Assembly: GCA_002633005.1 (NCBI GenBank)
Contig: NMRA01000159.1
Location: forward strand, 62,001 to 126,000
Direction of reading: 5' to 3'
Source of the DNA: Phoronis australis
Taxonomy: Eukaryota > Animalia > Phoronida
DNA length: 64,000 nucleotides
Shown here piece by piece: positions 8,619 to 54,900 of this stretch. The notes below the pieces were generated by a model, which was given only the letters and a program-made list of their open reading frames with translations, was not told the DNA's origin and ran no database searches. Made by a program: the position numbers and the translations under genes. Each line of letters starts with the position of its first letter. Position 1 is the stretch's first letter.

Positions 8619-11600
8619 ACAAATTCTTGACGTCAAGTACGGACTCAAGCGGTGGCAAATTGGAGAGATTGCATCAAAAATCGGCCAGCTCTACTATCAC
8701 TACTAGTAAGTGTTATTAAATGTAGATGGATATAGGCCTAGACATATGGGCTCAACAGTAAGGCCTAGACATCTGGGCTCAAGAGTAAGGCCCAGACATA
8801 TGGGCTCAACAGTAAGGCCCAGATATATGGACTCAATAGTAAGGCCCAGGCATCTGGGCTCAACACTAAAGCCCAGACATCTGGGCTCAACAGTAAGACC
8901 CAGACATCTGGGCTCATCAATAAAGCCCAGACATCTGGGCTCAACAGTAAGGCCCAGACATCTGGGCTCAACAATAATGCCCAGGCATCTGGGCTCAACA
9001 GTAAGGCCCATACATCTTGGCTCAACAGTAAGGCCCAGACATCTGGGCACAACTGTACTCCAGAACATCAGCCATGCACTTGTGATGTGAAATCATCTCT
9101 TTTATAATGGAAATAGTGAATTCAATCCCATAATCCAACATTCCAACCTCACCGACCAATCACTTCAGTGGCTGCCATTTTACTAGGTTATGCTGGTAAG
9201 GTCTCTAAAATACTCGCAGAACCTTGGCCTCCGCTCCGCTGATTTAGTGTGGTCCTGCGTGATCTTGGTTTTTGGTGAGATTCTTGGGTCTATGGAAAAC
9301 ATCCTATTCTGTTGATTTGACAAATGCAAGATGTTACAACAATGTAACTGCAGTTTAAAATCTCCTATCCTATTAACTTCACATCTGTTTGGAACTGCGT
9401 TGCATTGTCCACTGTTGTGGAAAGTTTTCTTTTTTCCACCGTTTCAAAAATGCGATTTTGTAGACCCACAGTTTCTACCTAGTTAGGTATCTGGTGCAAG
9501 CACAAATCTATGTTCACAAGGAGTGTAGGCACACCCCTTTTGTCAGTGCACCCAGTCTCAACTGAATGAGAAAAATGGATTTTGCGATGAATGATTCCTA
9601 ACTCTATCAAAAATAAATTCTTGTTGCATTTAAGATTAATTCACCACACTGTTTGGATTTCCCTTTACCCATAATGCACTGGGCACGTCACCTGATCTTC
9701 CCCATCTTCCAATCATGTCACGGCTGTTTTATTGTATTTTCAGCTTACGTACGAGTGAAGCCAGTTACTTGAATGAATCTTTCTCATTCTACTCCGCCAT
9801 CCGAATGAGAGCGTATTATTCTAAAGCAAACAAGGAGGATCGGTAGCGTTACCTCTTGGATTCATATTATAATTACTCTTTTAGCGCCACCTTTTGGATT
9901 TGTATTATAGTTGCACTTTTGGTGCCACCTTTTGGATTTGTATTATAGTTGCACTTGCTATGTCAGGTGTTCAAAACATCCTGAAGATTGGTTCAATAAA
10001 CAACTCACAAATCTCAAGTCGCACTGTGACTAAACTCAAATTTCACACGATTTGATTGGTCAGTTTTCCAGTCGAGTCTTGACTAGTAAAAGCTGATGGC
10101 CAGGTGCCGTGGTTGTTTCATTGCTTTCATTTTTCACAGACCAATAAGCCTGGATTTAACGATTTGTTTTCTGCGCTAATTCCTTTTACTATTATTAGTG
10201 TTGTATACTCGTGTTGCAATAAAAAGTTTAAAAAATATTGTTCTGTGTTGTTACATTAGGGCTTTGTTTGCAGTAAACGTAAGCTATCTCTCAGGTTTGT
10301 GTGTGGTTTCTGTATTCAATTTGTTTCGAAGTTGTCGCATTGAACTTTACAGGACAGATCTCATGGTGAAGAAGTTGCGATACTATGCTCGTTTCATCGT
10401 TGTTTGCTTGCTGTTAAAGAAGATGAAATTAGTCAAAGATCTCGTAAAGGTGAGCATCCACCAGCGAACAGTTATGGTGGAAAATGGTAAAATGCAATCC
10501 GATTATTAGGCACTGTTGAAGACCTTCAAATAAATAAGCATGAATGTTTCCGGTAGATTTTTCTAATTTGGTATGAAAAAGTTAATAAGACATTAGCAGT
10601 TGAGTGAGGTGGAGCATATCAGGAATCAAGTGCTGAACTGATAAGCTATGATGTCACTCCCAGACGAGTCAAATATGGCGAACAGAGAAAATAGAGCTTT
10701 ACTGTTTCAGGAGTTGGCCAAACAGATCGATGACTACACGTCGACATATGAACCTGATGATCAACAGGAGTGGACACTGGTGTTAGGGGAAATCAGGGCC
10801 TTTATAGAGGTATGTTCATGTAATGTCAAGAAAAGTGACGTAAATGCGCTCCTCACAACTATTCCTGAATGATAATTAGATCTCATTTGAGCGAAAGTGC
10901 AAGGTCTCAGAGAATGTCACATAATTGCTAGTTAAAGCTATCTTGAAGGGTAACATCTGTAATTTTGATTCCTACATCGCTCTGAGCCTACTAGTGTCAT
11001 AAATTGTCAAATGTAGCAAACTGTTTAATTCAAACAGCTGTAAATAACACCCACATGCTTTAAACTTGGCTTCCATCTGAGAATTTTGATTTTCAGCACT
11101 TGTCCAATGGAATTGGCTTTGACTTGTTCATTTCTTTGATTATTCACTGTGATACCTGAGTTATGGAAAAACTGAGGGTAGTCCATAACTTGAAAGCAAA
11201 TTCGATCATTTGGCTTGCTGCAATCGCTTATTGAGCCCAGTGTCGAACATTTAGGAACCATTGGTTTCCTCCACGCTCATAACATAACTGTAGTACCTTG
11301 AAATGTGTTAAGTCACTTCTATACACAGACTTTACATTAGAGCTACTTGCACCACTTTGAGTGGATCGTCAATAACTAGGGTAAGGTGAAAGTTGTTGCT
11401 CTGTGCATGACAATGAACACCTAATGCGAATACAGCACACATGTAACAGCAGCAGATTAATTACTTCTGCCTCACCCCAGGTTTGCGGCCACACAGGAAT
11501 TTGAAGTGGCGCAAGTTACCGTAGAACAAGTTACCCTACTTCAATAAGGTGGAGTAAGTTGTCACAAGTGGGATAGGTTGCGCTAGTTTAAGTAACGTCC

Positions 11601-17600: not shown

Positions 17601-20600
17601 GGGTCTGTAACTAAGTTCATAAATCACGCGATTATTGTAATTAGTCATATCAGAATTCACAATAGATGGCGCCACCTGGTGCCAAGCTCTGCACTGTGAA
17701 TTTCGAAACCCGCAGCATCTCATCATGTTTACCAGCCACCTTGTTACTATGGTAATATTCTACATATGCCAACATTTCTTTGCATAGGGACTTTGCAGTG
17801 TGCTTCCTCAAATATGAATGGACGTTGGCTATTACTTTGAATGTTGGCATGTTTGAATAGCTGCCCTTTCTAAATATTCAACTACACTCGGAATATGGGA
17901 ATTACATTTATTTTTTGCGTTGAAATATAAAGTAGGATTACAGTAAATGGGTTAATTTTTGTGTTATTTTGCAGGAAGTCATCAATGGCTTTATGATCCT
18001 GTTACTGTGGTTTGAATGTCGTTGCTAGATCACTCCTCAAGAATTGTTTTGAGTAGACTTGTAATATTGCAATAATGGGAGATGTAATTTCATGTAATCT
18101 GATGGTAAACAAAGAATCCAACCACTTAACTTGTTCAGACTTACTAGTGACAGTCTCTTCAATGTAGAGTTCTGAAATTTACCTGAACCAATTAATTTTT
18201 TGGCTATGTTTGACTTGGTAGCATTATTTTCTGATAAAGAAATCAGTTTCCACTGCCATTCATTTACCTAATGGATGGTACTTGAATGTGAAATTTGTCA
18301 ATGTTTACAAACATTGTAAGTTGTGTTGTGTGTCGCATCTTGCCATTCTTTCAGTGGCCTATGATCACGGAGGGGTATGCACCAACAATCGCCGTGACGA
18401 CGCTGGTCAGATAAAAATGCCAAACAAGAGGCCGCCTCTTACAAAAGATATCAATTGGTAGGTGTATGTTTGAACCAATGATATTTCATGCTGGTGGTTG
18501 CTTAATGCTTGTTTAAACAACGCGTTGCTTGTTGCTAGTGATTCGGGTTTATTTTATTTATTTGTTATTTAATGAAGCACTTGTACCATTTATGTCTTAT
18601 ATCAGTCTTCTAATCGTATCAAATGTATTGTATAGTATGTATTATAATATTGCTGTCACGTTGTTTCTATTCATCTCTTGTTTTATGTTGTATTCAAGTG
18701 TGTTGTACAGTGGCCCTCAATGTACAGTGGCCCTCAATGTACAGTGGCCCTCAATGAAGCGTCTTTTGTCTTTGAGGATCTCCGGCTTACATATCCCAAT
18801 GTGTTTTTTTGTTGTATTTCACTAATTGTTATTTTATATATAAGTTAATATTAAATGTATTACATCTCTCCCCCTCCCTCCCTCGCTCTGTCCTCGTGAG
18901 TTTTCGTAACGTTTGAAGTTTTTGCTTTAATTATTACTTGTGTCGGTATCTGTATGAAATACTGTGGCTGGGCTTGTTAATCCAGGAACCATTAGAAATG
19001 AATTTTTGCTCACCCTATAAAATCACTTTCTCATTATGAATTTCTTAGCAGATATGAATATAAGTATGTCTCAACCTTTTCATTCAGTCAATTGTGTATC
19101 AAATAAATCGTTCTAGCTTACACCCCGGCGACCTCTATCCATACCTACGGAAACCGCTCTTCCTCATAGTTGACAGTGACAACTCGATGGCGTTTAGTGT
19201 AAGTGCATTGTTTGACTGCTGTACAGATCTTACGGCTCAGATATAAAAATGGATCTTCCAGATGAACTCGACTTACTGTGGACTTTCAAGTTCAATTGAT
19301 GCTCACATTGTAATGAAAATGTGTCTGTCACAGTCACGTCATTAACACTGTCCTGTCATTACTTACAGCTGCTTAGTATCAGCCTTCATTCAAAATTCGA
19401 TGATTTAGATGTTGTACCATTGGCTATAATTGAGCTGGTGTCGACTTGTTACTCATTCAGGTTTTGGAAGAAATGGCCACTTTGTGTACTATTCAGTTGC
19501 GTTAGCATGGCTAGTCACTTTATGTATCTAATATGACCTTGAACTATAACGAACTACTAGTTCTCCTCAAGTTCAAAAATCAATTAACCAGTTTTTCAAT
19601 GTTATGACGACTGATCAAAATCAAATCGGATATTTTGGGAGTGCCGATTCATTGCATCTTTAATAATGCACGCATGTGACATTTTACATAAGGATTAAAT
19701 TTGCTCTTTGATCTCATGATGGGTATGGTAGTCCTAGATTTGATGACAGGGCAGGTAGCCCCAGACTTGATCCCAGGACAGGTAGCCCCAGATTTGATCC
19801 CAGGACAGGTAATCCCAGACGAGATCCCTGGACAGGTAGTCCCAGATTTGATCCCAGGACAGGTAGTCCCAGACTTGATCCCTGGACAGGTAGTCCCAGA
19901 CTTGATCCCTGGACAGGTAGCCCCAGACTTGATCCCAGGACAGGTAATCCCAGACTTGATCCCAGGACAGGTAGTCCCAGACTTGATCCCAGAACCAGTA
20001 GTCCCAGACTTGATCCCAGGACAGGTAGCCCCAGATTTATCCCAAGACAGGTAGTCCTAGACATGTTCCCTGGACAGGTAGTCCAAGACTTGATCCCAGG
20101 ACAGGTAGTCCTAGACTTGATCCCTTGCCAGGTAGACTTGATCCCTGGACAGGTAGTCCCATACTTGATTCCAGGACAAATAATCCCAGACTTGATCCCT
20201 GGACAGGTAGTCCCATACTTGATCCGAAGACAGGTAGTCCTAGACTTGTTCCTTGGACAGGTAGTCTCAGACTTGATCCCAAGACAGGTAGTCCTAGACT
20301 TGTTCCCTGGACAGGTAGTCCCAGACTTGATTCCAGGACAGGTAGTCCCAGACTTGATCCTTGGACAGGTAGTCCCATACTTGATCCCAAGACAGGTAGT
20401 CCTAGACTTGTTCCCTGGACAGGTAGTCCCAGACTTGATCCCAGGACAGGTAGTCCCAGACTTGATCCCTGGACAGGTAGTCCAAGACTTGATCCCAGCA
20501 CATGTATTCTTAACCTTTATACCTACCCTTCTTTCTTGTAGAGTTTACCCAACTTATTCAGTCAACCGTTGGTTTGCTTGTTGTCTCCAGAGGTCACTCC

Positions 20601-23569
20601 TGCACCTATACTAGGTGAGTGGGCCACTGTCAGTATGTGTAACAGTTGTCAGCTTACGTGAAGTCCTCTCACTTGCCTGTAGCAGCTACCACATCGGAGT
20701 CAGCATGGTTATAGGAGACGTGATAGTAATTATTGACTTGTGATCAGAGCCATCTATTGGGATTATTGACTGATGATCAGAGCCATCTGTTGGGATTAGA
20801 AACAAGAGTCAGTGGTATCATACATGTCACCTCAGCCTAATAGATGTATGGTCTGAGATATTACCTGAACACTTATGCTTTTCTGATCTGTCTGTAGTCA
20901 ACACAATGTACATTTACTTTCTGTCTCCTCAGTGAACGAAACGTCTGACTACAAACCCTACAATTCCAAATCAGTTGTTCGTAATCGAGTATCATGATTG
21001 TGAAAGTGTTTGGTTTGAACATGGATTTAAAACGGAAATATTTCTACGTATTTGTATGTTTTACAGTAAGTTATTCTGTGTTTTCTTGTTTGCCTTTTTG
21101 GCAAAAACTTTACAAGAAATGTCTCAACTTAGCGAGGTCCACTACATTCATGAAGAATGTGTTGTATAAAGTTTCATACTGTAGCTGTAATCATCATCAG
21201 TTTTATATTGACTGCTGAATAGTTAATTCATGAGTGTTTTATAATGTGTTTGTTACTTTGTTAGGTTATTGATAAGATTTCATGATTGACAAAAATGTTT
21301 TTGCAGTTGAAACTTGTACTTTCAAATTGTTTTTTTTTTATGTTTTTGGCAATGTGTTGCTGTCAATAGCAGTCTTCACACAATTAGGCCTACAACATAA
21401 GATTGTCAAAATGGGTTGTAAATGCTAAAAATACGGTAAACATTCTCCAATTTGGGACAGTCTCTAAAATTTGTGACAACGAAATTCAAGCTGAAGTCAT
21501 TTTTTGATACTGACATTCATCATGTTTCTCAAATATTTTGTTTTGAATCAGCAGAGTCTGAAAATAGACTTGGCAGTTCATAAAATTGTTGAAAGTAGCG
21601 TCCGATGCAACATTTTCGTGCATCCCCATGGTACATAACATCCAAGTGAATGGTTGTTTGTAAGTTGATCATCATTTTTGTCTATTTCTAAAATTTAGTA
21701 CAAGTTATGACCTTGACCAATATGATTAATTTTCACCTTTCCCAAACTGAGGAATTTTTACGGTAACTGAAATTCTATGGTGAAAGTTACTCTATGTTAA
21801 TACTTTATGACTACCTTCAGATCAGCGTCACCGTGGCAACATGTTCACTCTGTTCCTGTACAGCCCCCTGGAGGGAGTCTGCTTAACTAGTAATATTGTT
21901 GACATCTCCTCAAGAAACTGGGAGTCATGCCAAGGGATCATTGACAAGTTTATAGGAGAGGCAAGCCGTATGTTTACCAAAGCAAGAGATTTAGGTAATC
22001 ATGCTTTTCCCTTCAGTTATCGCTTGCTGAAAAATAATCTGTTGAGATTCTTGTGTTTAGTGGCTGGTTGAGGGAACTCATTTAAGTTTCACCGTTTGTC
22101 GTTTGTGTCGAAATGCGGCCAAGCTTTTCCTTCTTCTTGAAACCTCTACATAAGAGTACCAGCATAGTATGCATAAAGATGAGCTTTGATTCGATATCTT
22201 AGTTGTAATTTTTGTCTAGCAGATCAACAGCGTTTCTGCATGTTCAAGTGATCGCTGTTGTCAATGTAATTTTGATGCAGCCATTCTTGCATGTGAAATT
22301 GACCAAAAACACATGTTTGCAAAGGATCAGAGCCCAGGGTCTAATCTTTTCACTGAAGATAGAACTCAAAATTATTTTTGGCATCTTTCATTCTGTTTTT
22401 GGGAACTCAAGATGAATGTCCATATTTTATAATCGAGTACTTAATGCCTTATGTGGATGACAGTCTTATCCTAGTTTGCATTGAATGACCCCACCATTAA
22501 GGCTAAAAGCTCAAGTTTTTACTCGAAATCCTTATTTACTCGAGCACAGAATATAGACATTTATCTCAAATTCTAACAAAAGCAGAATGGGAAAGGTCAA
22601 AATTAATAACTTCTATTTGGAGTAGGATTAGATCTTGGCCCTTGTTTACAAGAAATGTCCTAATATGTACAGGTGCTATGTTTGTAGACATGGTATATAT
22701 GCAGTTCCTAGGCGATGACTTTCTTCGTCTGCTTCTCCTACGGTTCGTCTTCTGCTACACAGTCCTGCGGGCTCACAGGGGTTTCAAGGTGAGCGTGCAG
22801 CTGACTGGACGACCTTGGTGTTTTTAAGAAATTCTTCATGTTTTCAATGTGTAAATCTTGCAAAATTTCTCTCTCCAAGTCATTTACTGTACACGCGAAT
22901 AGGGTTAAAAAGTGACCCGGAATTCACCGGGGGAATCCAAATTCAGAGTAGCCTGCCGTCATGAATGAAGTGGAGTTGGCGATATTCGCTTACAGGGGTC
23001 CCAGATTTGGAAAACGAATTTGATGCCCATTATTCAGTGGAGAAAACAGCTTACATTAAAATGTAATAGCAGTGTAAGGGACCATTATTGGGAAATTAAC
23101 AGGAAAGTTAGCAAGGTGGCTAAGCCGTACTACATCTAAGCATTTTCTGTCCTATTAGCCATAGCCAGTCATTTTCGCTGCTTATAACAGAATTACGGAA
23201 TACAGTGTTTTGTTTGTTGATCATTTTGCATCACTGCCATGCCAAAGGACACAAGTGTTTTGAAAATTACTCGGCATCTGCTTTGAAAATTGCCGATGTT
23301 TTATGAGATTTCGTTAATTTTGAATACTATTGTATGATGCTGTGTTGTTAAACAAAAAGGTTACCTTCAATTTGAACTTCCATTAAATATGAACCAGTTG
23401 TGATGTTGTGACATTTTTGCAGGGCCAAACATATTACCCAGTGTCCTATCCTGCCCTGCCGACAGAAGATTTACTCCATCATCCTGCTCTACACAAAATA
23501 GTCCTTGAGCTAGTCACCTTGCTTGACGTACGCGGTCTGTATTTGGAGGCGGCTGAACTTCAGCAGTGA
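8619..23569 (+). CDS. SCAI: Protein SCAI (suppressor of cancer cell invasion), 5'-partial, 13 coding exons in window
   Basis: Phase-consistent AG/GT exons: 8619-8705, 9744-9842, 10353-10449, 10711-10809, 11864-12016, 12445-12570, 16766-16949, 18355-18457, 19117-19198, 20542-20614, 21821-21994, 22688-22788, 23423-23569 (TGA). The peptides YGLKRWQIGEIASKIGQLYYHYYLRTSE, KKLRYYARFIVVCLLL, KFSELTIDMFRMLQTLE, RENPHKYLLYKPTFSQL, CLHPGDLYP and FLGDDFLRLLLLRF match SCAI as I recall it. Exons for the N-terminus were not found in 1-8618 and presumably lie upstream. Confidence 0.95.
8734..9057. repeat. 27-bp minisatellite, 12 copies (AGGCCCAGACATCTGGGCTCAACAGTA)
   Basis: Visible tandem array starting about 28 nt after a SCAI donor; each unit contains the inverted repeat GCCCAGA-CA-TCTGGGC. 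Confidence 0.95.
9843..9956. repeat. 38-bp tandem repeat, about 3 copies, starting at a SCAI donor
   Basis: GCCACCTTTTGGATTTGTATTATAGTTGCACT at 9886 and 9924, plus a diverged first copy overlapping the GT at 9843. Confidence 0.75.
13820..14923. repeat. ~550 bp direct duplication either side of an N (probable contig-overlap artefact)
   Basis: 13820-14371 and 14373-14923 are near identical, and the single N at 14372 sits exactly at the junction. Confidence 0.9.
17067..17218. repeat. ~42-bp repeat array interrupted by an N (probably collapsed)
   Basis: ACCTGAAYACCTACAGGTTATTAATAGGAGGGGTCTGAAG on both sides of the N at 17108, plus a third diverged unit. Confidence 0.75.
18704..18756. repeat. 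17-bp tandem repeat, 3 copies (TGTACAGTGGCCCTCAA)
   Basis: Three consecutive exact copies. Confidence 0.9.
19726..20499. repeat. 27-bp minisatellite, about 28 copies (GGACAGGTAGTCCCAGACTTGATCCCW)
   Basis: Tandem array ending about 40 nt before the SCAI acceptor at 20541; it explains the DLIPGQVVP-type ORFs. Confidence 0.95.
21434..21763. mobile_element. TA-flanked MITE, family A
   Basis: TA|CGGTAAACATTCTCCAATTTGGGA ... TCCCAAACTGAGGAATTTTTACGG|TA; related ends at 37032-37319, ~57114-57326 and ~874-901. Confidence 0.7.
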
Positions 23570-42000: not shown

Positions 42001-45000
42001 CTCCTGTAGGATATCGGCCAAAGCTGTCGCTCTTGGTTGTCTGAAAGGACGACAGCAATGAATTACATTAATCAGTGGCTGATTTAGAGGGGGGCCAAGG
42101 GGACCATGGCCCACCTAAAATTTCCCCAGATTCCATTTGGCAGTTCGGGGGTGCAATTATCTGACGGACAAAACCCTGGCTAATACTCTGCCCTGGCCCC
42201 ACTAACTCAAAATCCTGGATCCGCCCCTGCTAATGATGACGCTGACCTTTGTAGTGATTATTTTAAACAAGATTATCAGTTCTGCTGGCTATACACCGCA
42301 AGTGTGTCTACTAATCCCCAAACTTTAATTAAAGGCTAATCATCCAAGTCTTCTTTTCCAAAGTTAGCTTTAAAACTGGCCACAGAACACCTTGCCCTCA
42401 AGGCAACATAACAGTGGTCAAATAAACAACGTCGCTGCCAACGTTACATACTGTGGTTGGCTGTTGCCATTTGGTGTCTGTGTGTCTGAAGAAGAGTTTG
42501 CCTGACTATCACCACCAGATGGAGCTCTGGCAGACTGAGAATCAGGGGAGGTTGAAGTAGCTGGAGACTCTTCTGAAATGAAGTTCACATGATCACTACT
42601 GGCTGCACAGACATATTAAAAAGAGACAACAAACAATGTGTTTGGAAAAAGAGTTAGAAATTCCGTAACCCTTTTCTACAAAAACCCGATTTTCTGCAAA
42701 AACACGATTTTCTACAAAAACGTGATTTTCTGCAAAAACACGATTTTCTGCAAAAACATGACTTTCTACAAAAACATAATTTTCCATATGATAAAGTAAA
42801 CAACAGCTGTGGTAAAGTTTACGGTCAAAATGGTCAAACGTGAAATTGGTCAAATCAGACTTTGACCAGGCTCAGTTTCCACAGCCCTAAAAACCGGAAA
42901 AAATGAAGAAATCTACAACAGGATTGTCCTTTACTCTCCCAAAGAAGCTCAAAGTAACAGCAAGATTACTTTGAAAGTAACTTTATGTGCCGATAAACTT
43001 CACCATGTTTCTTTGGTACCATATCAAGCACTCATAGAACGTCACAAAAGTAACCAGATAAAATACCGATTCCCCATCATGACGATTAATTCTGTAGACA
43101 GCAAAAATGTTAAAACTATTAGGGCAGCGAAATTCCAATTACAAAATGGCTTTAATAGCCACCTTCCTAACCCTCCTTTTAATTAGCTTTCATTCTTGGT
43201 CGTGACAGGACACTGCTCAGACGATGAATTCAGCATCTGCGTGACGGAGAATTCCAGATCGTTTTGTCTGAGTACATTTGGCTTGTATTGTATAGATGGG
43301 TCCCTACCAGTACACACCTGGTGTATAGATGGGTCCCTACCAGTACACACCTGGTGTATAGATGGGTCCCTACCAGTACACACCTGGTGTATAGATGGGT
43401 CCCTACCAGTACACACCTGGTGTATAGATGGGTCCCTACCAGTACACACCTGGTGTATAGATGGGTCCCTACCAGTACACACCTGGTGTATAGATGGGTC
43501 CCTACCAGTACACACCTGGTGTATAGATGGGTCCCTACCAGTACACACCTGGTGTATAGATGGGTCCCTACCAGTACACACCTGGTGTATAGATGGGTCC
43601 CTACCAGTACACACCTGGTGTATAGATGGGTCCCTACCAGTACACACCTGGTGTATAGATGGGTCCCTACCAGTACACACCTGGTGTATAGATGGGTCCC
43701 TACCAGTACACACCTGGTGTATAGATGGGTCCCTACCAGTACACACCTGGTGTATAGATGGGTCCCTACCAGTACACACCTGGTGTATAGATGGGTCCCT
43801 ACCAGTACACACCTGGTGTATAGATGGGTCCCTACCAGTACACACCTGGTGTATAGATGGGTCCCTACCAGTACACACCTGGTGTATAGATGGGTCCCTA
43901 CCAGTACACACCTGGTGTATAGATGGGTCCCTACCAGTACACACCTGGTGTATAGATGGGTCCCTACCAGTACACACCTGGTGTATAGATGGGTCCCTAC
44001 CAGTACACACCTGGTGTATAGATGGGTCCCTACCAGTACACACCTGGTGTAGTAGATTCCGCCTCAGCTGCGGTGGGATTCTGAAGCGTGTTCAACTTGC
44101 GTCGTGCCGCCTCGATCATGCGACGGGCGTTGTTGATTCGATTCTGTGACTGACTCTCCGTACGGGCAGGACCTATTTCAACACTGCCCAGGTTTATATG
44201 AACATCCATTTGGTTTCCATCACTCTACAAAACAGCACATAGCATACAACCAGTTCATTCATACCAAAACAGCACATTGCATACAACCAGTTCATTCATA
44301 CCAAAACAGTATCAATTACACGACCGAGTTTCGTTTAATTATTTTGTTCAAATTGAAATCTCAAAAATGATGTTACAGTCTTCTAAAACATAATTTTGTT
44401 TTGGTTGTACGCAACTTCCGAAAGAAAGGGTGACTCTCACGTGTAGTAGAGAAGCAACGGCTGACCTAATTACAGAGTATCCGTTGCATATGTTTGCCAT
44501 ATGCTACATCTTTTGCAGATGTCTGCATACCATTGATCAAACACAAACTATAGGAACATTGAATAGTTTTTCTATTAAATTACCTTTCCGTTAAATTAAC
44601 CCTCACCACAAACAACTTTTACAACAGTTAACCCATTTTACACCTTTCATAGCATGAGATTCCATTTGCGCTCATTTGTCATAACGGAGAATAACGGATC
44701 AATTTGTCTTGTATTGTATGTGCTCGGACATTCTCACCATACCACAGCAAAGTGTTTGGCAGAACAAAAAACATAATTCTGAAGCCCCCTTCCAATACTG
44801 CTACATGGTGCAAACAGCACATATAACTAACATTGGCTATGAGAATATTCTAAATAGACTTACTGTCGTATGGGTCCTTGTAGTCACCCGGGCATTCCGT
44901 CCAAGGTCGCCAAAGTTTCCCAGAGCTTGTTGAACAATATTCTGTAATTGGCAATCGACACAGACGTAACATTACAGATAAAAAATTTCCAAGAGCGCTG

Positions 45001-47159
45001 GAAAGTTGCTCACAAAACGATGACTGGGTGCTGGAAAACTCCATCCACAGGTTGACTGATGTATAGTAGAGTGATCCAATTTTCGATTGGTGAGCACGAA
45101 CACACTGGTTAGGATTACTCCCTTACGTACTTTTGTCTTCTTTTTACAACCAGTTTGCATGATGGTGAAGTTTCCTGTATTTTAGTCATAATTTTTGCAC
45201 AAAGTTTGACAAATTTTAATTTGTAATTTTTATCTCATTACCTTTCAGTCTAAAACTAAACTTTTAATAAAACAGAGTGAGACCGTTTTGACATTGGTTG
45301 AGTGAAAACTGTGAACTACAGGCGACTATCGCCTAAATGATCAACATACCTGCAGGCCATCGGGGGATACGGAGTCTGACGGCACCGAGAAAGACCCCAT
45401 GACAAAGTCGTGGTGGTGATGGGGGCCAGTGGATGAGGTCGAGGTGGTTGTACGTCCTGTGGTGTTGGGTCCATCATCCAGGGTACTCCCAGGGAGTCTT
45501 TGCACAACATGAATCACCTTGCCACCAACATCTGTTTAACATAATACTAGAGCTCAGTATGTTAAGCACCTTGCAAGCAACCTCCATTTAAGCTGCCTAT
45601 AAATCCGAATCTGGCAAAAAGCAACTTTTCACTTTGAGTGTTGTGAAATTATAAATATCCCCTCACTCATACTAGAATCGATTCCTGGACTTGGAACGAA
45701 TTGACAGCTTGTTACTGCTGAGACGTGTCATGGCATTTAGTACAAAAATACCTATGTAACCATTACACTGACAACCATATAAACATTACACTGTCAACTC
45801 TGTAACCATTACAATGTCAACTATCTAACCATTACACAATCAACCATGTATTCAATCATTGCAGTTGTCAACTATGTAATCATTACCGTCAATGATGTAA
45901 CTGTTACACTGTCAACCACGTAATCATTACACTGTCAATTTTGTAATCATTACTTAGTCAACCATGTAACCATTGCAATGTTAACTACATAACCATTACA
46001 CAATGATTCCCTTACCATGTTGGCTAAGCTTGGTAGTATCCTGCAACACCCGTCCTCGGAATATCAATCTCTGTTGATCAGCAGCTATGTTCTAGATAAA
46101 TAAAACACAGCACGATGAATGCAATTGGAAATGCATTCTGCTACGTAACAGTTATGTTGTAAGTCTTAGTAAATAGTCACTTCTCCAGCATACCTAGCAC
46201 TTTGTATACACATAGACAAGGGTTATTTGCACGTACCAGTCTGACAGGAAACTTTTCAACAAAAGTGATAAGTTAATCCGACAAAAATGCAGACAAAGGA
46301 ATAAAATTTGACATTCAAATTATCTACTTACAATTGATTCAGCTATTTTATCCTTGAATGCCCTGACCGTCATCTGAAGAAAACAGAAATTACATTTAAT
46401 GACACCAGTTATACGTGAAACAGTAATAACGAACCAGTTCCATCCAGAACATATATTCAAATGTATAACGGCCACTCATTGGGCACAACCATGTGGTAAG
46501 AGGTACCAGAACATTTCACTCCCTTCTTTTTCTGTTGCAAAGGGGAAAGGTGGCCTGTCCACTTTTTTTGACAAACAATTGTGGCGCCCCCTATAGGTTT
46601 TCTTACTTCCTGTTACAGTACTATTTTGCTTGGATGTGTTTGTGGCAACTCTGCGGTGACTAGGATTTTTTACAAGGCTGTCAAACAAAATCTAAGGCAG
46701 CATTGCTGACCTGCAGGTCTTAACCAAAGCGCTTTGGGATTTAAAGACAATACGTTGCTCATCTGAATCAGATCTGAAATCACTGACAGATGAGAAGACA
46801 AATCAAATCACAGGCAGTGTGTTCATGCCCCATCTTATAATTTGCAAGTTTAAGAGTTGATCAACCGCAATAAACTGTGAAGCATTTTCTAGAGTCTCCA
46901 ATCATTACAAAGTTCTTGTTACCGATGCAAATAAAATCCTATTGTGGTAAAGAATGTTATGAGCATAAAAAGCCCAACTCAGTTTTCACTTCTTTAGATG
47001 ACTAAAGCAGAGTGAAATGATGCTTAAAGTTTAAATTTTATGTACTTTATCATTGACGGTATTTTGAGTCTCAGAGTTTAATCACTCACTCACCTCCTCA
47101 TCCACGGAAAATGACCTGTTCTGTCCATCCAGAGTCTTCACTGATACTTCAATTGTCAT
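27068..47159 (-). CDS. BAG6: Large proline-rich protein BAG6 (BAT3/Scythe), 24 coding exons, about 1123 aa
   Basis: Minus-strand exons in order: 47159-47094, 46373-46332, 46091-46016, 45531-45350, 44941-44864, 44224-44044, 42572-42452, 42040-41917, 41202-41014, 40575-40471, 39947-39776, 39265-39155, 38625-38419, 38054-37909, 36926-36878, 36415-36234, 34897-34723, 33867-33644, 33210-33108, 32736-32606, 31854-31570, 29451-29404, 28097-27990, 27334-27068; total 3372 nt, phases consistent. It has an N-terminal UBL domain (IEVSVKTLDGQ...QRLIFRGRVLQD...VGGKVIHVVQR), a DVHINL motif, a Pro/Thr-rich middle, an NLS-region motif (EWIPV...PQRPFSDAYL...PKRRK) and a C-terminal BAG-similar domain (IQERLTNDPDFTPSRF). 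Extra symmetric exons could have been missed. Confidence 0.93.
32285..32470. repeat. Dispersed repeat shared with ~37485-37632
   Basis: Collinear motifs CCACCATGWGTGYACCAT, TTTTTCTAAG, CCTGAAG, GAGAAATGA, ATGCCAATATAAATA and GTGTAAAT..CCAA.AGATT.TAGAAATGA occur at both loci. Confidence 0.65.
35781..35936. repeat. Dispersed repeat, inverted relative to copies at ~13912-14067 and ~14463-14618
   Basis: GCGCGACTGTATGTGTTGGGCACTTCGCTAGCGACAGGCTTCGGA is the reverse complement of sequence in the SCAI intron. Confidence 0.85.
37032..37319. mobile_element. TA-flanked MITE, family A
   Basis: TA|CGGAAAAAATTCTCCAATTTAGGATAG ... CTGTCCCAAATCGGAGAATTTTTACCA|TA. Confidence 0.7.
42073..42229. mobile_element. 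Small hAT-like MITE
   Basis: Ends CAGTGGCTGATTTAG and CTGGATCCGCCCCTG are imperfect TIRs around G/C tracts; no clean target-site duplication. Confidence 0.6.
42672..42779. repeat. 18-bp minisatellite, 6 copies (TTTTCTRCAAAAACACGA)
   Basis: Tandem array about 100 nt upstream (minus sense) of the BAG6 acceptor at 42573. Confidence 0.9.
43289..44047. repeat. 33-bp minisatellite, 23 identical copies (TGTATAGATGGGTCCCTACCAGTACACACCTGG)
   Basis: 759 bp = 23 x 33; the last unit overlaps the BAG6 exon/intron boundary at 44044/44043. Confidence 0.97.
44228..44309. repeat. 37-bp tandem duplication adjoining a BAG6 acceptor
   Basis: CAAAACAGCACATWGCATACAACCAGTTCATTCATAC twice, next to the AG at 44226-44225. 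Confidence 0.85.
45753..46003. repeat. Degenerate ~23-bp minisatellite, about 11 copies (TGTAACCATTACACTGTCAACCA)
   Basis: Diverged tandem array beginning about 12 nt from the BAG6 donor at 46015. Confidence 0.85.
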
Positions 47160-47715
47160 TGTTAAGCAGAAGCTACAAAAAGAATGACATAATTTTTCAA
47201 GCTGCGGAGCTTACGAAAAAATTAGTACACGGGCAGTAAGCTGATTATGTAAGTGGGCAGCCTCGTTTCGACACTTTTCGGCACCCGTTCGATGCCAGTC
47301 TTTACTTTAGATCAAAACTTCGTCAGAAATGCTACCGATCACAATTAAGTTTTAAAGTTGGATGTTGGAAATTCCAATGCACATAGCAGGTGCCAAAGCA
47401 CAAAACACAGAACATGTTTTTCTCGTGCCCACATTTTGCAAATAAGAAAGCCATTCATTGCAATAGCTAATTTATGACACTGTGCAACAACTACCAACCA
47501 CGAGGCTGATGACTCATATTGCCACCTAGCTGAATCAAGACGTACTACTACTTCGCAATCAATGGCATGGGGAACAGTTTGGTAATTGCACTGCATGTGA
47601 TTAGATGTGATGTGTTTTAAACAAGTTATAAACTGCATCCTCATCCTCTAGAGGCCACTGGCAACTGGTCAAACGCGATCAGTCGTCACGTTGCTATTTG
47701 AAAGACTCCTATTAC

Positions 47716-48316
47716 CTGTGATCAACAGGGACCTCACTGACAGACATGTAATTTACAAGATCTTATCTCCTTAATGATGTCTGTCACGCACCATGTACTT
47801 CAACTTCAGTGGATGCCTGTGATCAACAGGGACCTCACTGACAGACATGTAATTTACAAGATCTTATCTCCTTAATGTCTGTCACACACCATGTACTTCA
47901 ACTTCAGTGGATGACTGTGATCAACAGGGACCTCACTGATAGACATGTAATTTACAAGATCTTATCTCCTTAATGAGGTCTGTCACACACCATGTACTTC
48001 AACTTCAGTGGATGACTGTGATCAACAGGGACCTCACTGATAGACATGTAATTTACAAGATCTTATCTCCTTAATGATGTCTGTCACGCACCATGTACTT
48101 CAACTTCAGTGGATGCCTGTGATCAACAGGGACCCCACTGATAGACACGTAATTTATAGGATCTTATCTCCTTAATGATGTCTGTCACGCACCATGTACT
48201 TCAACTTCAGTGGATGACTGTGATCAACAGGGACCTCACTGATAGACATGTAATTTACAAGATCTTATCTCCTTAATGATGTCTGTCATACACCGTGTGT
48301 TTCAGTTTCATTGGAC
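47716..48316. repeat. 101-bp tandem repeat, 6 copies
   Basis: Units start at 47716, 47817, 47915, 48016, 48117 and 48218 with CTGTGATCAACAGGGAC; internal inverted repeat TGAYAGACAT/ATGTCTGTCA. Confidence 0.95.
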
Positions 48317-50470
48317 ATTCACTACTACGTGCGAGACGGATCAAAATGTTCCCATACCAGTCTTGCCACTAGATGAGCTCAACAGTGGCTAAATACAGTA
48401 CAAGACAAAAGTAATTTGACAAAATAACATTTGCCCCGACATGATGGTTAATTTAGGTAACTGCAAAGAGACAGGAAATCAGCAGCAAAATTCTACTACT
48501 CTGACTCAACTTCTGCCCAGCTGGTAGGGAATTCTGGGTAATTTTGTCTCAATACACTTAGTGTTTACTGTGCCCATTCAGTGGTCTGAAACTGAAAGTG
48601 GCTTTCTTGTACATTGACTAAGCAGGAGGTGGGAGGTGAGAACCCTAAGTTTCAGTCAACCAGCCTGACTTATCATTTTAATCAATACTGTGATAAACTT
48701 GTATTCCATCCAAGAAGCCAACCTTTGACCAATACCATTTACTTATGATGAGAAGTGATATCTGAGTTTGCAAAAGAACTAGCAGTTCATTATTTCTCTA
48801 GACCATGCTCCGGACACAAAATGCCGCACTGTGACAAGCCAACTTGTAAAGCCTGGTCTCAAATAATTAAGTACTGTCATTTCTTTTGAAATCCTGAAAT
48901 TACTTCCAAGTTCACTAAGGAACAGTGTGACACCAAATTCATAATCATAAGTGATCCAAATCAAAAGTTGTTTTTGGGATGGGAGGTGAGCTGGAGGTGG
49001 GTATTTGTGACCATTTGGCTAACTTCTGAACATTTTATCTCAGTTCTAAATGGCTGATCAGATTTAAATGAAACTTTAAAATTCCTTTCACCTATATATA
49101 TATATATATCCCCAACTCTAAAACGCTGATAAGGAATGTATTTAAAGTGTTAACTTCCCTTTTTATAAGGGGCTATGAGAATAGGACATCAAACTCAGCC
49201 ATCCTCTTACCCGTAGCGGGAACATATACAAAGTTTCATAATCATCCTTAGTACGGTTTGGCCAATAGAGAGGCAGACCCCAAAAAACAGACAAGACAAC
49301 AGCAAAAGTGGCCAATAGATGGTGCAGAATAAGTTGAATCCATCAAAAAACTTAAGGTGGCATCACCTCAACTATGAAAATTCATCGCAGAATTACAAAG
49401 ACACATGTTTCAAATAGAAAAAATAAAACTGCCACTAGGGGACAGTCGGGTCATCAGATCCGTTTAAAAATTTGCTCATGCTGTCCCATTCACGATAGAA
49501 ATACATACGCAAATTTTTCCAGCCTTCATCCAGGGGTTTGAGGCGATACAGCACTGGATGCTGGACAGACATATGAACGGACACGGGTGATGGCATCATG
49601 CACTCACGTATAAACACGTGGCTACATAAACAAGAACACTTGGATACTTATTAATTTACGATGATTAGTTTTGGAGTTGCCTATCCGACTATTACTGTAT
49701 TAGTATTGGAGAATGACCCAAGGTTACATCTTGATTTTGATTCATGAAATTAAAACATTTAACAAAAGCATGGTTTTAGCTTGCCCCATAGTTCTACACA
49801 GGTATGAGACCAGTTATCAAATTGCAAATACCGAGTTATAAAAAATTTGTGACAGACGGAAAATACCTAACTACTGTTGTCCTGACCAGGCAGAACTTTC
49901 AAGAACCCAGGGCGGGTATTGAAGTGAAATAAATTTTAAACCACATAAAGTGTAAGTATTCGTCACACAGAATGGGAGACACGCACTTACTCACCAAGTT
50001 ACAACTAAAAATAAAGAGACTAATCACGTGAAAGGGTTTCTCAGTTAAAATTTTGGGAACCACTTTTGGTTCCCAGAAACTGTAAAACTGAATCGGAAGT
50101 AGGTTGTTGAGGATGTAACGAGAATTACAATCATAAAATGTTTCAAAATTCAATATAAAACAAAAATAACATATATAATATACACTATTATATGTGAATA
50201 ATATTTTATAGCATTTATATTTGAATTTTTAAATTATTTAAAATCGTCTTTTATTTTTAAATATAATTTTAATTTGAATAGCTTCTAGTTTTGATTTACT
50301 TTCTTTTACCTACCCTATGAGCCGCCGCCATATTTGTTTTGATCTTGCACAACGAGTAGAGTGAAGAAGTACAGATTCACCTTGAAAATCATTGCCTGAG
50401 CAATTGAAATCTGTTAAAAACTTTATAAACTATCATTTATCACACATACAAATACACAAAAGAAACGACA

Positions 50471-50548
50471 ATGGCCGATTCAGACTGGGATCAAGTGACA
50501 TATTTGAGGAAAAAAGCTCCGAAATCTGGACACTTGAAATCTGATCAG
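50471..50548 (+). other. Second copy of EDF1 coding exon 1 (within the duplicated block, probably the alternative haplotype)
   Basis: Identical 78-nt exon ATGGCCGATTCAGAC...GATCAG|GTTTGG, 1504 bp upstream of the copy at 51975. Confidence 0.85.
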
Positions 50549-50739
50549 GTTTGGAATTAGTGCTGTATACTTTTCTGCGTTTGATTGTTATTTTCTAGTT
50601 TGGCTCTGGTCGGAAATGGTTGCGGTCATTGTCTTTGAGATTCAAGCTTCTAGTACCTGCTGTTGTACTTGAGCTTTCCTCTCTGCAGTCTGCTATGGCT
50701 GTTAATGTTGGTGCTGATCCACCGATTCAGCCCCCCCCN

Positions 50740-51297
50740 CTGAACGTTGAATGCGTAGGACAAGTAAGGTATCCAACAGACACTTCGTCCGCTCTGATGG
50801 GGGGGTCGGCTCCACCTGCAGCTCTCTGCAGTTCTTCTGACCGTTGAGTGCCAGGGATGTGAAGAGCATCTGAAAGGCACCACGTCCGCTCCGCCACAAA
50901 AAGCTAGTATTTTACAGGACAAGGTAGTAAGTCTTGAGCCCAACCAATGAAGGGTGCTATTTGCCCATAGCTGGGAGTTAGGTTAGTGAACGCCAGAGCA
51001 TATCCATACACCGATGGGTCATGCACGTTGCACCTTTAAGAGCCTAACCTCTTCCGAGATCCCTAGCAAAATTTAGCCTGGGGCCGTAAGGTGCCCAGTT
51101 ACCATGGTGTACCACGAGGAGGTACTGCAAGAGTCTAGATTAGAGGTAGTTAAAGGCCACCAAGGCGGGTCTTACATATGCCTTCCTAAATAATTCGTCT
51201 CAGAGGACTAGGTGGTCGTAGAAGCTGAAAGCTAGAAAGTGCAAGCACTAACTACACTAACTACACATCTAACCCTGTGTCTAAGACACCACACCAC
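50740..51297 (-). mobile_element. 5' end of an RTE-like non-LTR retrotransposon, truncated by the assembly gap
   Basis: This sequence is absent from the matching position of copy A (junction at ACACAGGTA). It begins with an HDV-like ribozyme. The following open frame has LGSRLTTLSCK (resembling the GLGxxLTTxxxK leader of RTE-type elements) and ends at the N with AFNVQ (resembling the TFNVR start of an APE endonuclease). Confidence 0.65.
51061..51297 (-). ncRNA. HDV-like self-cleaving ribozyme with long J1/2
   Basis: Minus strand: P1 GTGGTGT (51297-51291) / ACACCAT (51110-51104) with a G-U first pair; P3-L3 ACC-TCCTCGT-GGT (51123-51111); P1.1 GG (51103-51102); P4 CTGGG/CCCAG; J4/2 GCTAA with C at 51076; P2 CTCTTGCAG (51133-51125) / TTGCTAGGG (51069-51061). 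Confidence 0.75.
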
Positions 51298-51811
51298 ACA
51301 GGTACAAGACCAGTATCAATGAAATTGCAAATAGCGAGTTATAAAAAATTTGTGACAGAAGGAAAATACCTAACAACTGTTGTCCCTGACCAGGCAGAAC
51401 TTTCAAGAACAACCCAGGGCGGGTATTGAAGTGAAATAAATTTTAAACCACATAAAGTGTAAGTAATCGTCACACAGATTGGGGGACACGCACTTACTCA
51501 CCAAGTTACAACTAAAAATAAAGAGACTAATCACGTGAAAGGGTTTCTCAGTTAAAATTTTGGGAACCACTCTTGGTTCCCAGAAACTGTAAAACTGAAT
51601 CGGAAGTAGGTTGTTGAGGATGTAACTAGAATTACAATCATAAAATGTCTCAAAATTCAATAGAAAACAAAAATGACATATATAATGATATAATATTATA
51701 CACAATATCTTATAACATGTATATTTGAATCTTTAAATGATTTAAAATCGTTTTTTATTTTTAAATATAATTTTAATTTGAATAGTTTCTAGTTTTTGTT
51801 TACTTTCTTTT

Positions 51812-51974
51812 ACCTACCCTATGAGCCGCCGCCATATTTGTTTTGATCTTGCACAACGAGTAGAGTGACGAAGTACAGATTCTCCTTGAAAATCATTGCG
51901 TGAGCAATTGAAATCTGTTAAAAACTTTATAAACTATCATTTATCACACATACACATACACAAAAGAAACGACA
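51812..51974. promoter_or_regulatory. Putative bidirectional promoter and leader region of BAG6 (-) and EDF1 (+)
   Basis: Minus strand reads AAATATGGCGGCGG (YY1-like, typical of housekeeping start regions) followed by donors AGG|GTAGGT and TAG|GTAAAA. The BAG6 ATG exon starts after an acceptor (ttttgtag| at 47172), so it needs an upstream leader exon. The EDF1 ATG is 140 nt away on the other strand. Confidence 0.6.
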
Positions 51975-54900
51975 ATGGCCGATTCAGACTGGGATCAAGT
52001 GACATATTTGAGGAAAAAAGCTCCGAAATCTGGACACTTGAAATCTGATCAGGTTTGGAATTAGTGCTGTATACTTTTCTGCGTTTGATTGTTATTTTCT
52101 AGTTTGGCTCTGGTCGGAAATGGTTGCGGTCATTGTCTTTGAGATTCAAGCTTGTAGTACCTGCTGTTGTAGTGTTGTACTTGAGCTTTCCTCTCTGCAG
52201 TCTGCTATGGCTGTTAATGTTAGTGCTGATCCACCGATTCAGCCCCCCCCTGGCTCTGTACTCGGCTCTGTAGTGGTATGGCCATATTGGTACTTTGCCA
52301 ACCGATAGTTATTTATAGCAGCTGGTGACACTTGAAAATATTGTAGCCAGTGAAAAATTTAATTATAAGAGACAGTTGTATTTCTGTCGTGCCTCGTGGT
52401 GGAACAGGTTTGACCTATTACAGTGTTAGAGTAATTCCAGAGAGTACTCACATTACGACGTCCACACTGGACGGTGGTGAACTCCAACATAGAGACGCCA
52501 CAGCTGAAACGCCACAGCTGAGATTGACATCGACATTTACTACAAGGCAAAGAAATTGTAGTTTACAAGCAGCAGTGGCTGTGCCATTCAACAAATATAG
52601 TCCGGATATCTATCGTCGTCAGGCTCCAAAGGTCATCCGCCATCTTCTTTCGCATGCAGCGCAGCCACGCGGAACTTAGCGTTCCAATTTGGAGTGCTCG
52701 TCTGCACGTTAGGTACTAATCTCTCGGGAGAAACATGCATGGAAGAACTGAGACTAAAATCAATGCATTTACCGACTGTTTTTTGAGACCCCTTAAAAAC
52801 TTGTAGATTTTACTAATGCACTTTTTTGTTCATTTTCAGACGATATTTTCAAAATTAAATTTTCTTCAGACGGAACAAAAAACAACTTAGGGATTGTTTA
52901 TGCAATGTATGTATTTGTCCCAGGCACTAACCGACACCTGTTAGGCCAAAGGAAAAACGCAGCTGACAAATGGAACACACTGGGTGCTTAACAGTTTCGG
53001 CCCACGCCTTGGTCATCAAAATATTGTCCACTTGTTTTTTATTGCAAAGCAAAGTACTGAGCTCAGCATTCATGTTGAAAGTTTTGGTTAAAGCATTGTG
53101 AATTTATTTGAAGAAAATTAAAATACTTGAATTGATAGAGAATGGCCACCAACAAAGTAAAACATTGACTTTATTTCACTATATTGCATTGTTACATACA
53201 ACACAGCATGACATAATCAAAATAAAAGAAGAGATTGAGCAATAAAATGCAAATGCAACTTGGGTATTTATTTGTATTTATAATTGTAGAAGCCTGTTAA
53301 AGGTGAGAAAAATCAAACAATACGAGATTGGGTAATTAATTAGAACAATTGTATCGAGGTTCAATGATCAACTTGCGCAGACAAAGTCTCAAAGGGTTGC
53401 AGTTCTGTTTTGGCTGACAAGGTGTTAACAGAGATTGAAGGAAAACTGAAAAGAAGAAGAAAGACAGCAGAGATAAGTGGTGTTAAGAACAACAAGAGCA
53501 AAAAGTCAAATAAAGATGTCACAAACACAAAATAAGTAAGGTCTATTTGGAATATAACAATTGCGATTTATTTTCCAGAACTGAAATTCTAAATCAATTT
53601 TAATCGATTTAAAAATCGATATCATGCTAGTAAAACAGTTTGTGATTGAAGTAGAATTGCTGTAAACCACTTTCCACTATTTTCTTGGCCTTACTCTGTG
53701 TGGTTTTCTGTTCTTTTAAAAGGTGGCAGCATATGACGACCATAAAATGGCTGCCGAAAAGCAATGCACAGTTGAACAACAAGGCATAAGTAAAAGAAAA
53801 CGTTTGAATACTATATATTTGTGAGAGATAAATCAAATCCTATTTAGAGCATAACTTTGAAGTGGAATAATTGTGAGAACGACAACAACCCGGTTTTATG
53901 CTTAGGCAGACGACCATTGGGTTCCCGAGTATATAAACTGATCCTTCATGCATATCGGGTCTTGACTTTTAGATCTTGCCAGAGTAATGCCCTATCTCAT
54001 TCCACACGACTCGATATCTGACACTATTTGTGAGTTCATCACCTGAATTGGTGCCAAAGTTGAGAACCATTAATGTTGACTTAAAACGTGTTATACATTT
54101 TGACATGAATTAATGTTCACTCCTGTATCTGTCCTTAATCGAGGTCTAGCCCTTGTCGGCAGTCCCTGATCTCTAAACAAGACGTTCGTTGAATACCATT
54201 CAGTTGCTCAGTAGATTGAACTGGTGCTCAGCAACATGAATCAGCAAGAGAGACTATTTCTCTGTTTGACAGATTGGTTGAACCCTGGTCAAGAGATAGG
54301 AACATTTTCATTGCTCGAATTGAATCTATACGGAATCTGTCCTTATAAGCACCCTCTGTGAATTTGCCCTGTTCATTGGAAAATGTGGAAAACTTCAAAT
54401 GATGGATAGCAGTAAGTGTCAATTGAAATATATAGTTCGGGTGTGTAACAGTTTCTCTGCTTTCCTTTCAGGCTATAAGAGCTGCCCAAAAGCAGGGTCT
54501 GTCTATTGAAACCAACAAAAAATGTGAGTATCTGGGAAGTAGATGTTTCCATAATAACTACGTGTAGATGAGTCGCATTTACCCCGCATGTAGAAGCAGC
54601 GTGGCAATAGACCCTTTTGGTAATCCCTGAAGTTGAAAGTGAGGCAATCACGGAATAATACCTGTTATTTATTACGTAAAACGGGTACGTATACGATGCC
54701 GTGAAATGTTCATTTCAAAAAAACCTGGCGCATAATGCAACTCGCTTGTATTCCTGCATGTACTTTGCTCAGTCATATAAACATGGGCATGTGATCGTGA
54801 ATGTTACGTTGTTCACTTCATAATCTAAAAAACAAATGTTTTGTCTGTAAAACCAAATTCTTTGTTTTTAATGTCAGTACATTGCAATTTCATTTTATCC

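What the first reader, a model, noticed from the sequence alone, without database searches (positions are those of the whole stretch)
51061..51297. HDV-like ribozyme whose predicted cut site coincides with the 5' junction of a retrotransposon insertion
Seen on the minus strand, in HDV order: P1 GUGGUGU; a ~155-nt J1/2; P2 CUCUUGCAG; P3/L3 ACC-UCCUCGU-GGU (one base from the HDV antigenomic ACCUCCUCGCGGU); P1' ACACCAU, giving 6 Watson-Crick pairs plus the canonical G1-U wobble; GG for P1.1; a CUGGG/CCCAG P4 hairpin; GCUAA with the putative catalytic C (51076); and P2' UUGCUAGGG. The +1 G (51297, or 51292 in a second GUGGUGU register) lies within a few bases of where similarity to the insertion-free copy resumes. 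Established: HDV-like ribozymes, some with long J1/2, process the 5' ends of R2 and RTE non-LTR retrotransposons. Inference: this is a possibly active member from a lineage where it may be unreported. Caveats: P2 has one U-U mismatch and J4/2 is slightly long.
Basis: partly seen in the sequence, partly recalled or inferred. Interest (0 to 1): 0.82.

Follow-up and report, generated by a model that had tools for sequence, protein, structure and literature searches.

The report
Ribozyme-headed retrotransposon in BAG6 intron
This is the front end of a young jumping-gene family, likely of the RTE type, whose first 240 bases have the full layout of a hepatitis-delta-type RNA predicted to cut itself free; the kind is well known, and this copy likely sits on only one chromosome, facing forward in what is likely the first intron of the BAG6 gene.

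Summary
Confirmed. Every HDV-fold element is at the stated place on the minus strand; it is the only descriptor hit in the window, with 0 full hits in 200 simulated windows. Contigs of other copies end at 51294-51299 against unrelated flanks, so the element starts at the P1 strand. Corrections: the P2 U-U mismatch is private to this copy. The long J4/2 is shared by the young subfamily and is atypical. The 'insertion-free copy' is likely the other haplotype, joined across a single N. The contig ends 558 nt into the element, so no reverse transcriptase was seen; RTE is inferred. New here: a predicted P1.2-like helix favours cutting at 51297, and the copy lies in sense about 205 nt below a splice donor that is likely BAG6's first. 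No cleavage was shown and the host lineage was not identified. HDV-like ribozymes at RTE, R2, R4, Ingi and LOA 5' ends are established, and this scan noted 155 similar findings in at least 35 genomes. New member of a known kind.

The parts
50740..51297 (-). 5' 558 nt of a multi-copy element, cut off by the contig end at the N
   Evidence: Absent from the other copy; contig depth 376-770 over most of it against 15-25 in the flank in run X3; other copies end at 51294-51299
51291..51297 (-). P1 5' strand, register 1; predicted cut 5' of G51297
   Evidence: 7 of 7 pairs with P1'; 3.2-6.0 kcal/mol better than register 2 in 5 of 5 constrained folds
51286..51292 (-). Alternative P1 5' strand, register 2
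   Evidence: Same 7-mer; overlaps the hairpin 51289-51277
51277..51289 (-). Small J1/2 hairpin (5 bp)
   Evidence: Pair probabilities 0.97-0.99 in J1/2 folded alone
51137..51275 (-). Predicted P1.2-like domain: helix 51275-51258 with 51137-51152, closing a variable interior
   Evidence: Outer 8 pairs at probability 0.91-0.99; J1/2 as a whole is no more stable than shuffles (z 0.0); a diverged subfamily stops aligning at 51154
51124..51133 (-). P2 5' strand
51111..51123 (-). P3 and L3
   Evidence: the core aligns to drz-agam-2-2
51102..51110 (-). P1' (51110-51104) and the GG of P1.1
51078..51098 (-). P4 hairpin; loop positions 51087 and 51089 vary among copies
51070..51077 (-). J4/2 with putative catalytic C51076; longer than usual
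51061..51069 (-). P2 3' strand; U51065 is A in the other copies seen
50974..51051 (-). Block downstream of the ribozyme shared with further subfamilies
   Evidence: Depth 1440-2215 in X3, several times the rest of the element
50742..50903 (-). Open frame of 54 codons running into the contig end; possible N-terminal extension of the element's ORF
   Evidence: no Pfam hit and no related homolog
50739..50739 (.). Single N, likely a join of two overlapping contigs
   Evidence: All 3 Ns in the window are flanked by direct duplications
49796..50738 (.). Likely empty haplotype of the same locus; insertion point next to 49796
   Evidence: 94.4% identical to 51296-52250; carries a second copy of the EDF1 start and of the splice donor
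51502..51600 (-). Short non-coding exon, likely BAG6 exon 1 (upstream end approximate); GT donor at 51501-51500
   Evidence: Minus-strand RNA reads in 3 of 3 RNA runs; bin means fit a stop at 51502
47157..47159 (-). Likely BAG6 start codon, 13 nt after an AG acceptor at 47174-47173
   Evidence: Ubiquitin-like N-terminus found by a recalled motif; BAG6 Pfam exons at 41-42 kb
51854..52053 (+). EDF1/MBF1 exon 1 (ATG 51975), divergent from BAG6
   Evidence: RNA depth 33-118 over 51870-52049, loose ends at 52053; MBF1 and HTH Pfam hits at 55-56 kb

Best explanation
The stretch 51297-51061 has the full HDV nested double-pseudoknot layout and marks the 5' end of a young multi-copy element, likely an RTE-clade non-LTR retrotransposon, and it is predicted to cut itself just 5' of G51297. 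The element would be transcribed from a neighbouring host promoter. As the RNA emerges, a J1/2 helix would pinch P1 and P2 together, C51076 and Mg2+ would catalyse the cut, and the released 5'-OH RNA would be translated and copied by target-primed reverse transcription, so that full-length new copies begin at this G. The 2-5 nt shared with the empty site at the junction would be microhomology used for second-strand priming. This copy is likely a recent heterozygous insertion, in sense, about 205 nt inside BAG6 intron 1, and is likely a passenger there. Shown: fold elements, copy ends, multi-copy state, both versions of the locus in one sample, the upstream donor. Inferred: cleavage (about 0.8 for the family, 0.65 for this copy), register 1 (0.75), RTE clade (0.65-0.7), heterozygosity (0.85).
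For: Only descriptor hit; 0 full hits in 200 simulated windows. Of the 16 of 45 contig pieces shown, six reach the 5' end and stop at 51294, 51297, 51298 (2) and 51299 (2); X1 and X3 are one sample, so about 4 loci. Loose ends at 51298 agree only 0.56-0.58, as unrelated flanks would. At 51065 all covering contigs restore a U-A pair in P2 (3 in X1, 4 in X3). The same core motif found 81 metagenome loci; of 70 distinct cores including the window's, 45 have J4/2 plus P2 and 33 of these also have a P1 partner, with 29 different P1' sequences. L014 and L073 continue into endonuclease plus RT ORFs, L023 into an RT ORF with the endonuclease start motif, L032 into that motif, and L030 into a Myb-RT ORF beside 28S rRNA. 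In L014, L023, L032 and L073 the motif lies 207-803 nt after P3, in most behind basic residues; here, about 390-410 nt after P3, the loose ends past 50740 read by eye in the window's open frame as an arginine-rich stretch then hydrophobic residues. Literature: six LINE clades carry 5' ribozymes (PMC5786205, passages); RTE cleavage is at the 5' junction and R2 J1/2 loops span 216-498 nt (PMC3774820, passages); a P1.2 helix with extended P2 activates drz-Agam-2-1 (PMC4908430, Results and Discussion).
Against: No cleavage assay. No pile-up of RNA ends at 51297, though depth there was 4 or less. No RT or endonuclease sequence of this family was found. J4/2 has two spare bases before the P2 register, seen in 2 of 45 cores (the window's and one doubtful distant match) against 32 with one and 10 with none. 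The unconstrained minimum-energy fold is 9-11 kcal/mol below the register-1 fold, which omits P2 and P1.1, and the whole region is no more stable than shuffles (z +1.18). Upstream host sequence can pair with the P1 strand or J1/2 (G51297 paired at 0.93 when the flank to 51340 is included and P1' is not yet made). Several variants in diverged copies break pairs against the window's partner strand (9 of the 13 paired-position changes typed); their own partner strands were not visible, so no compensatory change was shown within the family.
Confidence: 0.72

Rival explanations
1. The fold is inherited but slow or dead in this copy or the whole young subfamily; the element spreads with little or no cleavage.
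For: Atypically long J4/2; private U-U in P2; competing folds and flank pairing; older transcribed copies show a broken P3 or a lost catalytic C (loose ends and variants).
Against: All core bases are intact here. The majority contig differs at only 5 letters, none in P1, P3, L3 or J4/2, and its 14 gap letters match two J1/2 indels. Copy ends cluster at the predicted site.
Confidence: 0.25
2. The ribozyme is real but heads another clade (Ingi/Vingi, LOA, R1, R4-like) or an internally deleted non-autonomous RTE derivative.
For: No ORF homology was found; these clades also carry 5' ribozymes and RTE makes bipartite derivatives (PMC5786205, passages).
Against: Closest Rfam ribozyme match is drz-agam-2-2 with large J1/2 and long P2. 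The insertion is not in rDNA and flanks differ, against R2. Contigs run at least 135-482 nt past 50740. A faint RT-like match just after the ribozyme failed its control (0.9 bits; 16 of 300 shuffled sets as good).
Confidence: 0.3
3. Cleavage uses register 2 (5' of G51292), or both registers.
For: Identical 7-mer; the deepest X1 contig leaves the window sequence at 51294, lacking most of register 1; PMC3774820 describes duplicated P1 strands as alternative cut sites (passage).
Against: Register 2 must melt a hairpin at probability 0.97-0.99 and is 3-6 kcal/mol worse; five of the six pieces shown reach 51297-51299.
Confidence: 0.2
4. The two copies of the flank are a real tandem duplication rather than two haplotypes, so the insertion could be fixed in one paralog.
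For: 94% identity with indels is low for alleles in many species.
Against: A single N separates them and all 3 Ns in the window have such duplications. The filled version has depth 2.1 in X1 against 3.3-7.2 for low-depth element contigs; the empty version 24.5 in X3 against 28-41 (the tool warns that depth is no copy number).
Confidence: 0.12
5. Chance resemblance.
For: Rfam score is below threshold.
Confidence: 0.01

Closest known systems
drz-Agam-2 large HDV-like ribozymes (Rfam RF01788; PMC4908430, abstract, Results and Discussion read)
   Same: Long structured J1/2 with a P1.2-type helix, extended P2, near-identical core and J4/2 letters.
   Different: P2 is 9 bp rather than 12; an extra 5-bp hairpin follows P1; J4/2 is longer; the P1 strand is tandemly repeated; short P4; score below gathering.
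5' HDV-like ribozymes of RTE, Baggins/LOA, R4, R1 and L1Tc/Ingi elements (Ruminski 2011, not held; seen through PMC6765202, PMC3774820, PMC5786205 passages)
   Same: Predicted cut at the element's 5' junction; conserved downstream and variable upstream sequence; position in an intron.
   Different: Family sequence matches none of the 81 loci nor earlier notes by sequence; clade unproven.
R2 ribozymes (PMC3774820, passages)
   Same: Long J1/2; duplicated P1 strand as possible alternative cut site.
   Different: Not in 28S rDNA; P1 is made mostly or wholly of element sequence.
CPEB3 intronic ribozyme (PMC10919898, abstract only)
   Same: HDV-like fold in sense in an intron, where cleavage can compete with splicing.
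   Different: CPEB3's is minimal, fixed and conserved; this one is a recent, likely polymorphic transposon head with no sign of host selection.

Membership tests
HDV-like ribozyme | P1 of 6-7 bp starting at G+1 with a G-U or G-C pair | tested here: met
HDV-like ribozyme | P3 of 3 bp with 7-nt L3, and P1.1 | tested here: met
HDV-like ribozyme | P2 crossing P1 (pseudoknot) | tested here: met
   8 of 9 pairs in this copy; the mismatch is a pair in the other copies seen
HDV-like ribozyme | P4 followed by J4/2 with the catalytic C and conserved purines | tested here: met
   linker longer than in 42 of 45 cores
HDV-like ribozyme | Covariation of helices among copies | tested here: inconclusive
   One pair-restoring and one pair-keeping single change; partners of diverged copies not visible. 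The motif class shows 29 different P1 sequences.
HDV-like ribozyme | Mg2+-dependent self-cleavage needing the C | not testable with these tools
   RNA depth too low to see ends
Rfam drz-agam-2-2 (RF01788) | Score at or above gathering (38 bits) | tested here: not met
   13.6 bits; not filed under this family
RTE-clade non-LTR retrotransposon | Dispersed copies with a common 5' end and unrelated flanks | tested here: met
RTE-clade non-LTR retrotransposon | Single ORF with AP endonuclease and RT, RTE by RT phylogeny | tested here: inconclusive
   Contig ends before the domain; searches blank; only an arginine-rich lead-in read by eye
RTE-clade non-LTR retrotransposon | Target-site duplication and 3' microsatellite or poly-A tail | not testable with these tools
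   3' junction is not in the window; no genome held
R2 | Insertion in 28S rDNA | tested here: not met
   No Rfam rRNA match in the window; flank holds EDF1 and BAG6 exons

The most novel reading that the evidence does not exclude
An active ribozyme with a longer-than-usual J4/2 has just landed 205 nt below BAG6's first splice donor on one chromosome only, cuts the nascent pre-mRNA long before the next exon is made, and lowers that allele's output while the BAG6 promoter feeds the element: a natural filled-versus-empty allele pair for watching how a CPEB3-like intronic regulator is born or purged.
Probability: 0.2. Interest if true: 0.52.

Novelty: new member of a known kind. Interest (0 to 1): 0.3.

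Why it matters
It adds one more large, Agam-2-type ribozyme to a known class, so the class itself is no surprise. Two details are useful. The young subfamily seems to spread with a J4/2 longer than in 42 of 45 cores, which tests how much slack the catalytic strand allows. The likely heterozygous sense insertion near the start of a housekeeping gene offers an allele-matched test of whether a transposon's ribozyme harms host transcription; an engineered intronic ribozyme does lower host mRNA (PMC12069562, passages).

Tried and rejected
No whole genome is held, so full copies, the 3' end and target-site duplication could not be read. The 54-residue frame gave 0 hits among 19 candidates and 4 weak hits among 1.84 billion representatives, none with a retroelement domain. 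A weak tblastn match of the post-ribozyme region to the RT of L023 (E 0.009; 1 of 60 shuffled sets) failed against a 4-sequence RT profile and Pfam: rejected. Family-specific patterns found nothing in genome contigs or viral contigs. None of the 81 loci resembles the element at DNA level. [quoted passage not shown] No RNA holder was listed. Other Rfam matches (CLRN1-AS1, Giardia U2, Hovlinc) are sub-threshold and unstructured or partial; treated as chance. In one search my P4 constraint was off by one; one search corrects it and its energies are the ones used. Webb 2009 and Ruminski 2011 were not held; no supplements were read, and these papers' lists may already include this lineage.

Full report
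Observation. A descriptor written for the HDV order found this site as the only core and only full match on both strands of the window. In 200 Markov-simulated windows it found 0.05 cores per window and no full match. Rfam gives only a sub-threshold match to drz-agam-2-2, but aligned over P3, L3, P1.1 and J4/2. As a control, none of 10 metagenome loci with the same core, one an R2-like element beside 28S rRNA, reached a ribozyme gathering score, so the low score says little.

The element. Positions 51295-50740 are missing from a second copy of the flank (49796-50738 against 51296-52250, 94.4%). In two DNA runs of one sample, contig depth over the element is 15- to 30-fold that of the flank, a rough sign of some tens of copies (the tool warns depth is no copy number). 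Of 16 of 45 pieces shown, six reach the 5' end and stop at 51294-51299; they are about four loci. Loose ends there agree only 0.56-0.58, as unrelated flanks would. So the family begins at the P1 strand. The majority contig is about 98% identical to this copy, so the subfamily is young; older subfamilies are also present, one with a different J1/2 interior beyond 51154. A run labelled organism B holds a decayed piece at low depth.

The 'insertion-free copy'. A single N separates the two copies, and all three Ns of the window are flanked by direct duplications. Both copies contain the EDF1 start and the same splice donor. The filled version appears in X1 and the empty version in X3, each at lower depth than most single-locus contigs. 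I infer two haplotypes joined by the scaffolder, hence a heterozygous, recent insertion. The contig ends 558 nt into the element, so its body and 3' junction are not available, and no genome is held.

The two caveats. The P2 U-U mismatch is private: at 51065 every covering contig (3 in X1, 4 in X3) has the letter that restores U-A. The long J4/2 is not private: the majority contig's 14 gap letters equal a 4-nt deletion plus a 10-nt insertion in J1/2, leaving none for the U run. Loose ends from older transcribed copies show a P2' directly after J4/2. Among 70 distinct cores (81 metagenome loci plus the window), 45 have J4/2 and P2; the spare bases before the P2 register number 0 in 10, 1 in 32, 2 in 2 (the window and a doubtful distant match) and 3 in 1. 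This is the main reason to doubt fast cleavage.

Cut site. With P3 and P4 fixed, register 1 (G51297) is 3.2-6.0 kcal/mol better than register 2 in 5 of 5 flank lengths, because register 2 must open a 5-bp hairpin. J1/2 is predicted to close with a helix, 51275-51258 with 51137-51152, whose outer pairs have probability 0.91-0.99, three bases from P2. This resembles the P1.2 'pinch' that speeds drz-Agam-2-1 by up to three orders of magnitude (PMC4908430, Results and Discussion read). Against: J1/2 is no more stable than shuffles, the unconstrained fold is lower in energy, and host flank can pair with the P1 strand. The base before G51297 is U, the commonest among 26 short-J1/2 cores (16 of 26).

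Clade. No protein of this family was found. The same core heads endonuclease-RT ORFs in L014 and L073, an RT ORF with the endonuclease start motif in L023, that motif in L032, and a Myb-RT ORF in L030; these are other families and show only that the arrangement is common. Here the open frame 50903-50742 continues, in the loose ends of X3 and X10 read by eye, into an arginine-rich then hydrophobic stretch about 400 nt after P3, like the lead-in to the endonuclease in those loci (207-803 nt). RTE is therefore likely but unproven; Ingi/Vingi, LOA or a deleted derivative remain possible (PMC5786205, passages). A faint RT-like match right after the ribozyme failed its controls.

Host context. The window is animal DNA with SCAI, BAG6 and EDF1/MBF1. 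RNA reads define EDF1 exon 1 on the plus strand (about 51854-52053) and, in the opposite orientation, a short exon near 51600-51502 at depth 8, 8 and 2. Its bin means fit all reads stopping at the GT donor at 51501 (the acceptor side was not among the rows shown). BAG6's likely start codon is at 47159, 13 nt after an AG. The element thus likely lies in sense, about 205 nt inside BAG6 intron 1. This matches the described route for RTE and Baggins elements, transcribed from host introns and freed by the ribozyme (PMC6765202, passages). An intronic ribozyme can lower host mRNA (PMC12069562, passages; PMC10919898, abstract). There is no evidence of that here: no RNA read covers 51330-51449, the reads on the ribozyme carry other copies' variants and come in both orientations, no pile-up of ends lies at 51297, and the RNA runs are other samples whose genotype at the site is unknown.

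Novelty. [quoted passage not shown] This scan holds 155 notes on HDV ribozymes with RTE elements in at least 35 genomes and 10 on intronic sense copies; none matches this sequence. The host group was not identified, so the 'unreported lineage' claim is untested. Verdict: new member of a known kind, interest 0.3.

Noticed in passing
window 14372, 17108, 50739: Each of the three Ns is flanked by a direct duplication (552, 40 and about 950 nt; 94-98% identity), likely haplotype overlaps left by scaffolding.
   Followed up: partly
window 51502-52053: Head-to-head EDF1 and likely BAG6 first exons only about 250 nt apart, suggesting a compact bidirectional promoter.
   Followed up: partly
window 51510-52049, run X11: About half of X11's EDF1 exon-1 reads match the filled haplotype at 51883 and 51900, and its BAG6-exon depth is low (2 against 118 for EDF1; 8 against 75 and 53 in X9, X10). 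Both covering reads at 51572 have the empty-type letter. Too few reads, and tissue may differ; not evidence.
   Followed up: partly
window 50974-51051: Block just downstream of the ribozyme with several-fold higher depth than the rest of the element; folds as a long hairpin; may be a conserved translation or protein-binding signal.
   Followed up: partly
window 52595-52800: A repeat abundant in RNA of both orientations with many different flanks; also in the organism B run. Not classified.
   Followed up: no
window 51270-51248: J1/2 holds short tandem repeats; the majority contig has one more 10-nt unit than this copy.
   Followed up: partly
L002, L005, L010, L011, L021 and further loci of the same marine assembly: A dispersed repeat family with the HDV core, J4/2 and P2 but no P1 partner found within 400 nt in most copies; possibly a very long J1/2 or a non-standard P1.
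   Followed up: no
L009, L035, L038, L046, L067, L068: Compact HDV-like fold about 250 nt upstream of a long ORF in gut-type contigs; L009 also has group II intron matches.
   Followed up: no
window 8680-9111, 19592-20640, 43157-44182, 47676-48379: Minisatellite arrays of 27, 27, 33 and 101 nt; the 33-nt array is 100% identical over many units.
   Followed up: no
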